Source: Shigella phage ESh19. From it: a stretch of DNA of 64,000 bases. Below are positions 46,855 to 47,721 of the stretch, piece after piece; the stretch's first letter is position 1; the number at the start of each line of letters is the position of its first letter. The notes beneath the pieces are model-generated. The model made no database searches. It was given only the letters and a program-made list of their open reading frames with translations, and was not told the origin of the DNA. Location of the stretch: the sequence record ON528729. One strand, written 5' to 3'. A program made the translations under genes and the position numbers.

Positions 46855-46868
46855 TTACCAGACCGTAT
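46855..46868 (-). repeat. tRNA-island flank motif A (ATACGGTCTGGTAA on minus); other copies 46995-47011, 47483-47497, 47643-47656
   Basis: Four near-identical copies, two lying about 10 nt upstream of tRNA 5' ends (Asn, Met). Confidence 0.5.
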
Positions 46869-47157
46869 TTATCTTAAGTGCTTCCATTACACCAACACGC
46901 CGTAACGTGTGAAGGATTCGAACCTTCGCCTTTTCTTTACCAGAGAAATAGATTGTTTATTGTTTGCTGTAAACGGTCTTCTGTAAAATTGTTGGAACCA
47001 GACCAAGTTTTAAATTTTTCAAATTAAATTGGCTTGAAATATTAAAGTTGCTTGCTGTATTTGGTCTTCTGCTCCTTTAAAGAATACTCGTAAGAACTCT
47101 TTAAGGGAGGGGCTAACAAGCCCTCTCAAACATCATTTTGAAATACTTATTATAATT

Positions 47158-47234
47158 TGGCGGTTACGAAGGGAATCGAACCCTCATCTTCCTCCGTGAC
47201 AGGGAGGTATTTTATCCAGTTAAACTACATAACC
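47158..47234 (-). tRNA. tRNA-Asp (GTC)
   Basis: Anticodon stem CCTCC/GGAGG loop CTGTCAC, G73, T-arm GAGGG-TTCGATT-CCCTT. Confidence 0.7.
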
Positions 47235-47240
47235 TTTATT

Positions 47241-47328
47241 TGGTGCGCCGTGAAGGAGTCGAACCTACCGAGTCATAATGACAAGTGATTTACAGTCACC
47301 ACCGCTTCCATCTACGGGATAACGACGC
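47241..47328 (-). tRNA. tRNA-Tyr (GTA), type II
   Basis: Anticodon stem GGTGA/TCACT loop CTGTAAA, long variable arm, T-loop TTCGACT, 88 nt. Confidence 0.65.
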
Positions 47329-47397
47329 ATTTTATTCTATTCAGGCTAAGGACTTGCACCTTACAAATCGGTGAGCAATCGCTTCTCTCCCAAATCT

Positions 47398-47474
47398 TGG
47401 CGGTTAGTCAGGGATTCGAACCCTGTACCATTCGGTTAACAGCCGACCGCACATGCCTTATGTGCTTCCTAACC
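47398..47474 (-). tRNA. tRNA-Asn (GTT)
   Basis: Anticodon loop CTGTTAA, T-arm CAGGG-TTCGAAT-CCCTG, G73. Confidence 0.65.
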
Positions 47475-47530
47475 ATGTTAGTATTACCAGACCGTATCTT
47501 TTTATTTTTTCCGATAAAAAATTTTAAGTG

Positions 47531-47555
47531 TTTGCTGTAAACGGTCTTCTGTAAA
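47531..47555 (-). repeat. tRNA-island flank motif B (plus TTTGCTGTAAACGGTCTTCTGTAAA); other copies 46963-46987, 47048-47075, 47694-47720
   Basis: Four copies, two lying immediately 3' of tRNA CCA ends (Met, Glu). Confidence 0.5.
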
Positions 47556-47557
47556 TT

Positions 47558-47634
47558 TGGAGGCGGGTGTAGGAGTCGAACCTACCGATACCATGCTAAT
47601 GAGACATGTGAGACGCCCTTTCTCTATACCCGCA
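47558..47634 (-). tRNA. tRNA-Met (CAT), second copy (1-72 mismatch, initiator-like?)
   Basis: Anticodon stem CATGT/GCATG loop CTCATTA, T-arm GTAGG-TTCGACT-CCTAC. Confidence 0.6.
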
Positions 47635-47721
47635 ATTCTTAATGACCAGACCAAATCTTTTTTGGATTTCTATGCGCGAAATTGAAAAATTTGTTTGCTG
47701 TAATTGGCCTTCTGTCAAAAC

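What the first reader, a model, noticed from the sequence alone, without database searches (positions are those of the whole stretch)
46855..47720. Reiterated sequence motifs bracketing individual tRNAs
Motif A (minus ATACGGTCTGGTAA) occurs four times, twice about 10 nt upstream of tRNA 5' ends. Motif B (plus TTTGCTGTAAACGGTCTTCTGTAAA, containing a CTGTAAA direct repeat) occurs four times, twice immediately 3' of a CCA end. Together they delimit cassette-like tRNA units and could be processing sites, promoters or recombination footprints for tRNA module exchange.
Basis: seen in the sequence. Interest (0 to 1): 0.5.

Follow-up and report, generated by a model that had tools for sequence, protein, structure and literature searches.

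The report
Y-RNA-like genes beside phage Ro60-like gene
The repeated motifs are the two base-pairing ends of four small structured RNAs interleaved with the phage's tRNA genes; they belong to a widespread, apparently undescribed RNA family that always sits next to a Ro60-like RNA-binding protein gene, so they are probably its Y-RNA-like partners.

Summary
The motifs are real, but they do not bracket tRNAs. On the transcribed (minus) strand, each motif B lies upstream of a motif A and is complementary to it. Together they close four non-tRNA units lying between tRNAs: U1 47717..47643, U2 47554..47484, U3 47075..46994 and U4 46986..46855.

Each unit has a 4-5 bp outer helix, an AGA/G internal loop and a 7-bp inner helix. 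A near-invariant single-stranded UACAGCAA follows the 5' arm, then a variable core, then a conserved G after the 3' arm. U4's core is a permuted tRNA-like module, as in YrlA Y RNAs.

The gene just upstream (48048-49463, DUF2828+DUF7788) folds like Ro60. A covariance model built only from distant phages ranks U2, U1 and U3 as the top three hits in the 64-kb window. In about 150 distant DUF2828 loci from two collections, every hit lies on the gene's strand, mostly within 500 nt. The helix shows 99-100% pairing with many compensatory changes.

Best reading: Y-RNA-like partners of a Ro60-like protein. Binding and expression are inferred, not shown. The promoter and recombination readings are not supported. 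The short units also resemble Dictyostelium Class I RNAs, which is unexplained.

The parts
48048..49463 (-). Ro60-like protein gene (471 aa; DUF2828 + DUF7788; helical-repeat ring plus vWA domain with a MIDAS DxSxS motif)
   Evidence: Pfam PF11443 (7e-27) and PF25043 (7e-44); no TROVE hit. phrog_850 'RNA-binding protein'. AF2 model: pLDDT 89, pTM 0.88. The Foldseek PDB top 12 hits are all full-length Ro60/Rsr/TROVE, E 6e-8 to 2e-6, TM 0.4-0.6. D279, S281 and S283 are invariant in alignment A1.
48001..48029 (-). sigma-70-like promoter (TTGACA-17-TAATAT) between the Ro60-like gene and the first tRNA
   Evidence: consensus match only
47910..47939 (-). sigma-70-like promoter (TTGACA-18-TATAGT with TG; 11/12), 28 nt upstream of tRNA-Pro; likely start of the tRNA/ncRNA transcript
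   Evidence: consensus match only
47643..47717 (-). Unit U1, between tRNA-Glu and tRNA-Met. Outer helix UGAC 47717..47714 / GUCA 47646..47643. Inner helix AGGCCAA 47710..47704 / UUGGUCU 47654..47648. Motif UUACAGCAA 47703..47695. Conserved G 47647.
   Evidence: CM R1 28.0 bits, E 2e-4. The MFE fold gives this architecture. Conserved in relatives with a variable core. RF01414 19.7 bits.
47484..47554 (-). Unit U2, between tRNA-Met and tRNA-Asn. Outer helix UUAC 47554..47551 / GUAA 47487..47484. Inner helix AGACCGU 47547..47541 / ACGGUCU 47495..47489. Motif UUACAGCAA 47540..47532. Conserved G 47488.
   Evidence: CM R1 41.1 bits, E 9e-8, the best hit in the window. MFE fold. RF01414 25.7 bits.
46994..47075 (-). 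Unit U3. Outer helix GGAGC 47075..47071 / GUUCC 46998..46994. Inner helix AGACCAA 47067..47061 / UUGGUCU 47006..47000. Motif AUACAGCAA 47060..47052. Conserved G 46999.
   Evidence: CM R1 27.2 bits, E 3e-4. MFE fold. The outer helix changes to GAGC/GCUC in relatives.
46855..46986 (-). Unit U4, the long tRNA-like member. Outer helix UUAC 46986..46983 / GUAA 46858..46855. Inner helix AGACCGU 46979..46973 / ACGGUCU 46866..46860. Motif UUACAGCAA 46972..46964. Conserved G 46859.
   Evidence: 34-pair structure: 92% of cells paired against 37-50% when slid; 15 pairs changed on both sides; 0 of 500 shuffles reached this. The MFE fold gives the same helices. Partial R1 hit of 19.6 bits.
46877..46948 (-). 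Permuted tRNA-like module inside U4. V hairpin 46948..46932. T arm GAAGG-UUCGAAU-CCUUC 46927..46911. Closed acceptor-like hairpin ACACG-UUACGG-CGUGU 46910..46895. D arm GUGU-AAUGGAA-GCAC 46892..46878.
   Evidence: The Rfam tRNA model hits 46903-46977 at 29.6 bits, through the V and T arms. All 5 acceptor-like pairs and 3 of 5 T-stem pairs show changes on both sides. The helix order V-T-AS-D matches the YrlA consensus shown.

Best explanation
Motifs B and A are the 5' and 3' arms of the terminal helices of four small non-coding RNAs. These are transcribed on the minus strand, within the tRNA array, just downstream of a Ro60-fold protein gene. They belong to a large RNA family defined by a 7-bp helix joining the two ends (5' A-G-R... 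/ ...Y-C-U), a near-invariant single-stranded (U)UACAGCAA right after the 5' arm, a variable core, and an unpaired G after the 3' arm. The core is either A/U-rich hairpins or a permuted tRNA-like module. Proposed mechanism follows. (1) Promoters at 48029->48001 and 47939->47910 drive a polycistronic tRNA/ncRNA precursor (inferred). (2) RNase P and the 3'-processing of the flanking tRNAs release the inter-tRNA units, and exonucleolytic trimming stops at the terminal helices (inferred). (3) The helix plus the adjacent UACAGCAA forms the binding site for the DUF2828 Ro60-like protein. This occupies the same position as the Ro60-binding motif of Y RNAs, immediately 3' of the 5' strand of the terminal stem (inferred from strict genomic coupling and analogy). 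(4) The variable cores, including U4's tRNA mimic, tether or decoy other factors, as Y RNAs do for Ro60. The orthologous protein of phage Bas63 is reported to counter the Ppl defence system, so the RNP may act in counter-defence or RNA quality control during infection (inferred). Shown here: the RNA structure by covariation, the family membership, the coupling to the gene, and the Ro60 fold. Not shown: expression, RNA ends, binding and function.
For: Complementarity and compensatory changes among the four window units can be read directly from the sequence. Model R1 was built only from units in distant phages (39-46% protein identity, no Ounavirinae). It ranks U2, U1 and U3 as the top three hits in 64 kb on both strands, at 41.1, 28.0 and 27.2 bits. 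Across 72 distant viral DUF2828 loci there were 70 hits, all on the gene's strand. 57 of 72 loci had at least one hit, the median distance was 212 nt, and 62 of 70 lay within 500 nt. In an independent set of 80 genome or MAG loci at 30-42% identity, 44 of 44 hits were on the gene's strand. The helix is 100% paired (74 distinct sequences) and 99.3% paired (43 distinct sequences), against 26-48% when the partner is slid. All 7 pairs change on both sides, and the covariation score is about 1.0 against 0.24 for shuffles. Motif columns are 72-74 of 74 identical and the 3' G is 73 of 74. In mycobacteriophages Moostard and Gardann, a gene annotated 'Ro-like RNA binding protein' (33-35% identical) is followed by short unit, tRNA-like unit, short unit, then a terminator. 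The tRNA-like members hit Rfam YrlA at 38-39 bits, E about 2e-5 to 9e-5. The U4 structure is supported. The protein has a Ro60 fold. T5's tRNA region, the negative control, has no hit. PhageMaP (PMC11482910) reports that Bas63 gp130 is Ro60-like, lies upstream of the tRNAs and counters Ppl, and its authors guessed that Y RNAs hide among the tRNAs. Thermus phage phiLo Ro60 binds two adjacent Y-RNA-like RNAs (PMC12135203).
Against: There are no expression, end-mapping or binding data. MFE z-scores are weak (-0.9, -1.9, +0.5, -0.9), so support rests on covariation. Alignments A4 and A6 were fitted to the model, which inflates the pairing percentages. The protein is not a TROVE member by sequence. 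The canonical Ro60-binding motifs GGUCCGA and GNCGAAN0-1G are absent. U4 itself does not hit Rfam YrlA at E<=10. 15 of 72 distant loci had no hit. Two weak hits lie elsewhere in the window.
Confidence: 0.75

Rival explanations
1. The helices are punctuation or processing signals (RNase III, E or P sites) that help cut the polycistronic tRNA precursor. The excised pieces have no function of their own.
For: The units abut tRNAs within 3-11 nt. The long imperfect helix with an internal loop resembles phage RNase III sites (my own knowledge). The same arrangement occurs in relatives L112-L114.
Against: 13 of 19 distant loci carrying the RNAs have no tRNA within 3 kb. The near-invariant single-stranded UACAGCAA and the conserved tRNA-like core of U4 are not explained. 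T5's tRNA array lacks them. The coupling to the DUF2828 gene is strict.
Confidence: 0.1
2. They are cis- or trans-acting regulators of the DUF2828 gene itself, such as a leader, an attenuator or an antitoxin-like repeat array, and not RNP partners.
For: They occur in tandem arrays directly beside the gene and on the same strand.
Against: They occur either upstream (26) or downstream (44) of the gene. In this window they lie behind separate promoters. The protein has the fold of an RNA-binding ring, not of a nuclease toxin.
Confidence: 0.08
3. They are DNA-level elements: terminal inverted repeats of miniature mobile cassettes, or recombination footprints for exchanging tRNA modules.
For: The inverted-repeat arms flank variable cores. 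The tRNA content differs among relatives. An HNH endonuclease gene lies in the array in a relative.
Against: Orientation is always that of the neighbouring gene, in 114 of 114 hits. G-U pairs are tolerated only on the transcribed strand, for example U1's AGGCCAA/UUGGUCU. The invariant motif is asymmetric. The four units are syntenic across genomes.
Confidence: 0.04
4. They are promoters for individual tRNAs, with TTGACA/TTTACA in motif B serving as -35 boxes.
For: U1 begins with TTGACA, and U2 and U4 with TTTACA. One 9/12 match lies at 46987->46959.
Against: No conserved -10 box lies at the right spacing. The count of promoter-like sites equals the shuffled expectation. U3 has GGAGCA at that position. 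In other lineages the arm sequences are unrelated to TTGACA and covary with the 3' arm.
Confidence: 0.03

Closest known systems
Bacterial and phage Y RNAs of the YrlA/YrlB type bound by Ro60/Rsr (Rfam RF02553; Chen et al. 2014, PMC4201824)
   Same: They are encoded next to a Ro60-fold protein gene, often several in a row. The 5' and 3' ends pair into a stem, with a conserved single-stranded motif just after the 5' strand. One member per locus carries a permuted tRNA-like module in the order V-T-acceptor-like-D. tRNA-like members from distant loci hit RF02553 at 38-39 bits with E about 1e-5.
   Different: The protein belongs to Pfam DUF2828/DUF7788, not TROVE. The conserved motif is UACAGCAA, not GNCGAAN0-1G. 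All hits fall below the gathering score of 69, and the window's U4 gives no hit at all. The short members are only 65-80 nt. Here the RNAs are interleaved with genuine tRNAs.
Thermus phage phiLo Ro60 with Yrl1/Yrl2 (PMC12135203; PDB 9KOP, 9L5Y)
   Same: A phage-encoded Ro60-fold protein with adjacent Y-RNA-like genes. The structures are among the top fold matches.
   Different: phiLo Ro60 is a canonical Ro60 homologue, and its RNAs were picked by the CGAA motif. There binding was shown experimentally; here it was not.
Dictyostelium Class I RNAs (Rfam RF01414; Kjellin et al. 2021, PMC7919456)
   Same: A short stem joins the 5' and 3' ends. The conserved motif CCUUACAGCAA lies directly after the 5' arm; the phage consensus is N-U-ACAGCAA, commonly UUACAGCAA. 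Both have A-U and G-C closing pairs and end in CU-G(U). The rest of the RNA is variable, and the lengths are 42-65 nt against about 60-80 nt. RF01414 is the only non-tRNA Rfam family hit repeatedly by the short units, at 17.5-30.7 bits.
   Different: All scores fall below the gathering score of 41.5. The motif is offset from the stem by one nucleotide. The host is eukaryotic, with its own DUSE promoter. The published partner is the RRM protein Rnp1A/CIBP. The authors report the class as unique to Dictyostelia. No link to DUF2828 is known, and I could not test one.
Stable RNAs of unknown function inside phage tRNA clusters (T5 RNAI, RNAIII, RNA1, RNA2 'tRNA-like')
   Same: Non-tRNA and tRNA-like stable RNAs are co-transcribed with phage tRNAs (annotation).
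   Different: No sequence or structure match to this family (best R1 hit 12.5 bits, E 1.1). No DUF2828 or Ro-like product is annotated in the 40-kb T5 stretch examined.
Bas63 gp130 (PhageMaP preprint, PMC11482910)
   Same: A Felixounavirus gene directly upstream of the tRNA block, with structural similarity to Ro60. It is presumably the orthologue of 48048-49463, but orthology was not checked directly.
   Different: The preprint only suggests that some annotated tRNAs might be Y RNAs. The candidates found here are unannotated inter-tRNA units with their own conserved motif.

Membership tests
Y RNA (Ro60-associated ncRNA, general) | Encoded beside or with a Ro60 orthologue | tested here: met
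   The units start 330 nt downstream of a gene whose model matches Ro60 structures over its full length. The coupling holds in about 150 distant loci.
Y RNA (Ro60-associated ncRNA, general) | The 5' and 3' ends pair into a stem that carries the protein-binding site | tested here: met
   The terminal helix is supported by covariation. A conserved motif lies next to its 5' strand.
Y RNA (Ro60-associated ncRNA, general) | Canonical Ro60-binding sequence (GGUCCGA, or GNCGAAN0-1G in bacteria) | tested here: not met
   The units have UACAGCAA instead.
Y RNA (Ro60-associated ncRNA, general) | Physically bound by the Ro60 protein | not testable with these tools
   This needs RIP, EMSA or a structure.
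YrlA (Rfam RF02553) | tRNA-like module with T arm, closed acceptor-like stem and D arm in permuted order | tested here: met
   Met by U4 only. The order matches the YrlA consensus.
YrlA (Rfam RF02553) | Score at or above the Rfam gathering score (69 bits) | tested here: not met
   The window's U4 gives no hit at E<=10. Family members elsewhere score 29.6-39.1 bits.
Dictyostelium Class I RNA (Rfam RF01414) | Short stem joining the ends, with the 11-nt CCUUACAGCAA motif next to the 5' arm | tested here: inconclusive
   8-9 of the 11 nt are identical and in the same structural position. Whether this reflects homology or convergence cannot be decided.
Dictyostelium Class I RNA (Rfam RF01414) | Score at or above the Rfam gathering score (41.5 bits) | tested here: not met
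   17.5-25.7 bits in the window. Up to 30.7 bits in distant loci. No gathering-level hit in 19 loci.
Dictyostelium Class I RNA (Rfam RF01414) | Dictyostelid genome context (DUSE promoter about 60 nt upstream) | tested here: not met
   The sequence is phage DNA with sigma-70-like promoters.
Ro60/TROVE protein family (Pfam TROVE) | Sequence match to the TROVE domain | tested here: not met
   Only DUF2828 and DUF7788 are hit. The profile search against PDB gives Ro60 at E 0.5-0.9, in the vWA region only.
Ro60/TROVE protein family (Pfam TROVE) | Helical-repeat ring plus C-terminal vWA domain with MIDAS | tested here: met
   Full-length Foldseek matches to 1YVP, 9NFA, 9KOP, 9L5Y and 2NVO. DxSxS is invariant.
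sigma-70 promoter | -35 and -10 hexamers 16-18 nt apart, more frequent than chance | tested here: not met
   4 sites were found against 3.3 expected, and only one weak site overlaps a motif.

The most novel reading that the evidence does not exclude
The phage RNAs (stem + UACAGCAA + 3' CU-G) and the Dictyostelium Class I RNAs (stem + CCUUACAGCAA + 3' CUGU) would be one ancient family of partner RNAs for DUF2828-type Ro60-like proteins. DUF2828 proteins also occur in giant viruses and, according to DUF2828 mentions in plant papers, in plants. If so, Class I RNAs would be the Y-RNA equivalents of a second, unrecognised branch of Ro-like RNPs spanning phages, giant viruses and eukaryotes. Class I RNAs are abundant, developmentally regulated, of unknown mechanism and reported as unique to Dictyostelia. 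The uncharacterised Class I pull-down protein DDB_G0281243 would be a candidate DUF2828 member.
Probability: 0.3. Interest if true: 0.85.

Novelty: new variant of a known kind. Interest (0 to 1): 0.7.

Why it matters
It turns a vague guess, that some tRNAs of Felix-O1-like phages may be Y RNAs, into four precisely delimited RNA genes with a testable binding motif. It also defines an RNA family, absent from Rfam 15, that accompanies DUF2828 'RNA-binding' proteins in enterobacterial, vibrio, mycobacterial and many uncultured phages. Those proteins are common and functionally opaque. One orthologue is reported to overcome the Ppl defence system, so the RNAs are obvious candidates for the active or specificity-giving part of a phage counter-defence RNP. 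The family also offers a natural series for studying how Ro-like rings read RNA: short members, permuted tRNA mimics, and tRNA-shaped members with the motif in the anticodon arm. The unexpected match to Dictyostelium Class I RNAs makes a 20-year-old question, what those RNAs bind and do, directly testable.

Tried and rejected
- **Direct MAFFT alignment of diverse units.** It misplaced the 3' arms. A3 was unusable and 5 of 26 rows of A2 were wrong. I therefore built R1 from A2 with a hand-given 7-bp structure and let cmsearch realign the sequences.
- **Simple regex and stem scan with permuted 7-mer controls.** The criterion was too lenient. About 21% of control occurrences also had a 7-bp stem, and some permuted controls overlap the real motif. 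I used it only as a lead.
- **Rfam at gathering threshold.** It found nothing but tRNAs in 19 distant loci.
- **Rfam YrlA on U4.** No hit.
- **Sequence searches of the protein against PDB.** Not significant. Only the fold comparison was decisive.
- **afdb50 fold library.** Not available. I therefore could not see whether Dictyostelium or plant DUF2828 proteins share the fold, or whether DDB_G0281243 is one.
- **Literature and supplement searches for DDB_G0281243, DUF2828 and the phage tables of Chen 2014.** They gave nothing usable.
- **Hairpin-ribozyme resemblance (ACAGAAG... / ...CUGGUA).** Considered from memory and dropped, because the topology differs and there is no Rfam support.
- **The TTTACAG direct repeat inside motif B.** Not conserved in U1 or U3, so it is probably incidental.
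Full report
**Source and orientation.** The window is a Mooglevirus/Felix-O1-like (Ounavirinae) phage. It is 99.7% identical to Citrobacter phage BSwM KMM4 over the region. All 25 tRNAs found by ARAGORN lie on the minus strand, so I read the finding on that strand.

**Checking the observation.**
- Motif A occurs exactly twice and motif B exactly twice.
- The other two copies of each are diverged: 3 and 5 mismatches for A, 4 and 8 for B, counted from the sequence. The repeat finder recovers them as families D12 and D17.

- On the minus strand motif B reads UUUACAGAAGACCGUUUACAGCAAA and motif A reads AUACGGUCUGGUAA. The two are complementary: AGACCGU pairs with ACGGUCU, and UUAC pairs with GUAA.
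- Each B is followed 33-94 nt downstream by an A. This gives four units: U1 47717..47643, U2 47554..47484, U3 47075..46994 and U4 46986..46855.
- The diverged copies keep the pairing through compensatory changes: U1 has AGGCCAA/UUGGUCU and UGAC/GUCA; U3 has AGACCAA/UUGGUCU and GGAGC/GUUCC.
- U1's G-U pair would be an A-C mismatch on the other strand, which points to selection on minus-strand RNA.
- Independent MFE folds of all four units give the same architecture: a 4-5 bp outer helix, an AGA/G internal loop, a 7-bp inner helix, an unpaired UACAGCAA and internal hairpins. The z-scores are weak.
- In 25 related genomes the arms and UACAGCAA are conserved while the cores diverge strongly.

**The long unit, U4.**
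- After the motif it contains a hairpin (V), a T arm (GAAGG-UUCGAAU-CCUUC), a closed acceptor-like hairpin and a D arm (GUGU-AAUGGAA-GCAC). This is a tRNA permuted so that the terminal helix emerges between the D arm and the anticodon-side hairpin.
- The Rfam tRNA model touches it at 29.6 bits.
- On an alignment with orthologues, including a 52%-identity relative (L114), the 34-pair structure is 92% paired against 37-50% when the partners are slid. 15 pairs change on both sides, including all five acceptor-like pairs, and 0 of 500 shuffles reach this.
- The V-T-AS-D order is that of the YrlA consensus.

**The neighbouring gene (48048-49463, minus strand).**
- It ends 165 nt upstream of tRNA-Pro. 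Two sigma-70-like promoters lie in between.
- It encodes a 471-aa DUF2828+DUF7788 protein, which PHROGs labels 'RNA-binding protein'.
- Sequence searches against PDB are not significant, although Ro60 is among the top three profile hits.
- A confident AF2 model (pLDDT 89, pTM 0.88) matches only Ro60/Rsr/TROVE structures over its full length. These make up the top 12 hits, with E 6e-8 to 2e-6, and include Thermus phage phiLo Ro60.
- Among viral models it matches DUF2828/DUF7788 proteins of giant viruses and, more weakly, TROVE or 'Ro-like' phage proteins.
- The vWA MIDAS motif is invariant.
- The PhageMaP preprint noted that Bas63 gp130 is Ro60-like, lies upstream of the tRNAs and counters the Ppl defence. 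It suggested that some annotated tRNAs may be Y RNAs. It did not identify the RNAs.

**Coupling of the RNAs to the gene, viral loci.**
- I fetched DUF2828 loci from viral contigs. A first look showed stem + ACAGCAA units beside the gene in phages only 31-46% identical.
- I built covariance model R1 from 26 such distant units, with no Ounavirinae sequence.
- In the 64-kb window its three best hits are U2 (41.1 bits, E 9e-8), U1 (28.0) and U3 (27.2). U4 gives a partial hit because of its long insertion.
- Over 72 distant viral loci there are 70 hits, all on the gene's strand. 57 of 72 loci have at least one hit, the median distance to the gene is 212 nt, and 62 of 70 lie within 500 nt, although the flanks extend 3 kb.

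**Coupling, independent and annotated sets.**
- In an independent collection of 80 genome or MAG loci at 30-42% identity, 44 of 44 hits are on the gene's strand.
- The helix is 100% and 99.3% paired in 74 and 43 distinct sequences. All seven pairs change on both sides, the covariation score is about 1.0 against 0.24 for shuffles, and slid controls give 26-48%. These alignments are fitted to the model, so the percentages are inflated. The slid controls and the diversity of arm sequences still argue for a real helix.
- The motif columns are nearly invariant, and the G after the 3' arm is present in 73 of 74 sequences.
- Intermediate relatives (52-62% identity) carry the same inter-tRNA units with different stems.
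- In mycobacteriophages Moostard and Gardann the homologous gene is annotated 'Ro-like RNA binding protein'. It is followed by short unit, tRNA-like unit, short unit, then a terminator.

**Controls against a tRNA-centred reading.**
- 13 of the 19 distant loci scanned with Rfam have the RNAs but no tRNA within 3 kb.
- The 40-kb tRNA region of T5, with 25 tRNAs and several annotated stable RNAs, has no hit: the best is 12.5 bits at E 1.1.
- The promoter scan finds no excess of sites, and only one weak site overlaps a motif.

**Comparison with known RNA families.**
- No Rfam 15 family reaches its gathering score on the units.
- Two families give repeated sub-threshold hits. tRNA-like members hit YrlA at 38-39 bits (E 2e-5 to 9e-5 in multi-locus searches; gathering score 69). 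Short members hit Dictyostelium Class I RNA at 17.5-30.7 bits (gathering score 41.5).
- In the YrlA alignment the model's conserved 5' motif region (gCgaAUGCu) falls where this family has its own motif, just after the 5' strand of the terminal stem. This is the position of the proposed Rsr-binding site.
- The canonical motif itself (GNCGAAN0-1G) is absent. I therefore file the units as working like Y RNAs, not as members of YrlA.

**The Class I resemblance.**
- Published Class I features are a short terminal stem, CCUUACAGCAA next to the 5' arm, an AAG start, a CUGU end and a variable remainder.
- The phage consensus is 5' (A/U)(A/U)-A-G-R-NNNN-N-U-ACAGCAA ... NNNN-Y-C-U-G.
- The authors report Class I RNAs as unique to Dictyostelia. 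Their pull-down included an uncharacterised protein, DDB_G0281243.
- I could not determine whether Dictyostelium has a DUF2828 protein. This remains a lead, not a result.

**Conclusion.**
- The motifs are the paired ends of four ncRNA genes of a widespread family that is strictly coupled to DUF2828 Ro60-fold proteins.
- The most likely mechanism is a Y-RNA-like RNP. tRNA processing would release the RNAs, the helix plus UACAGCAA would bind the protein, and the variable or tRNA-like cores would engage other factors, possibly in counter-defence.
- The structure, the family membership, the coupling and the protein fold are shown here. Expression, RNA ends, binding and function are inferred.

Noticed in passing
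window 47241-47330 (-): A tRNA-Tyr (GUA) with a long variable arm is missed by ARAGORN. It scores only 22.8 bits with Rfam tRNA at 47246-47326. Relatives annotate it as tRNA-Tyr.
   Followed up: partly
window 46551-46631 (-), between tRNA-Lys(UUU) and tRNA-Met: An 81-nt spacer with a closing stem (GCCCCUU.../...AAGGGGC) and a core CUGCGCGGCUGGAAACACCCACUCAA. The core is conserved in relatives at 52-62% identity (L112 6498-6575, L113 7901-7982). There is no Rfam hit. It may be another structured RNA.
   Followed up: no
window 46712-46732 and 46836-46856: A 21-nt inverted repeat (86% complementary) encloses 103 nt, directly after U4 and before tRNA-Lys (I3). A similar long-stem element follows U3 in L112 at about 6300-6421. 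It is a possible further ncRNA or a processing hairpin.
   Followed up: no
window 43883-43907, 46156-46180, 47077-47101: A three-copy family of short hairpins with a UACG-type loop on the minus strand (AAGGAUUCUUACGAGAGUCCUU-like) lies in spacers of the tRNA array (D16).
   Followed up: no
window 9176-9239 (-) and 54131-54182 (+): Weak R1 hits of 23.2 and 22.4 bits. The first lies in a divergent intergenic region with no ORF of at least 50 aa and overlaps TTGACA boxes. The second is inside a 145-aa ORF. Both are probably chance.
   Followed up: partly
window 49540-49911 (-): A 123-aa DUF5681 gene sits immediately upstream of the Ro60-like gene. It keeps that position in relatives at 52-62% identity, so it may be part of the same module.
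   Followed up: no
L077 2597-2711; L146 796-904; L046 2358-2485: tRNA-shaped RNAs beside DUF2828 genes carry a 50-70 nt insertion in the anticodon arm. In L077 and L146 the insertion contains the ACAGCAA motif. This is a third, non-permuted architecture of the family, or else intron-containing tRNAs.
   Followed up: partly
L146 1007-1068 (+): The orphan Rfam motif freshwater-1 (RF02979) scores 82.7 bits (gathering score 72). It lies inside an array of tRNAs and ACAGCAA units just upstream of a DUF2828 gene on a MAG contig.
   Followed up: no
window 47348-47362 (plus-strand coordinates): A T-arm-like sequence, AAGGACTTGCACCTT, lies in the spacer between tRNA-Asn and tRNA-Tyr (D10). It looks like a decayed tRNA remnant.
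   Followed up: no
L195 (phage T5, record positions 30284-33949): T5's tRNA region is annotated with eight 'stable RNAs with unknown functions', some called tRNA-like. None matches this family. They remain an older unexplained parallel.
   Followed up: partly
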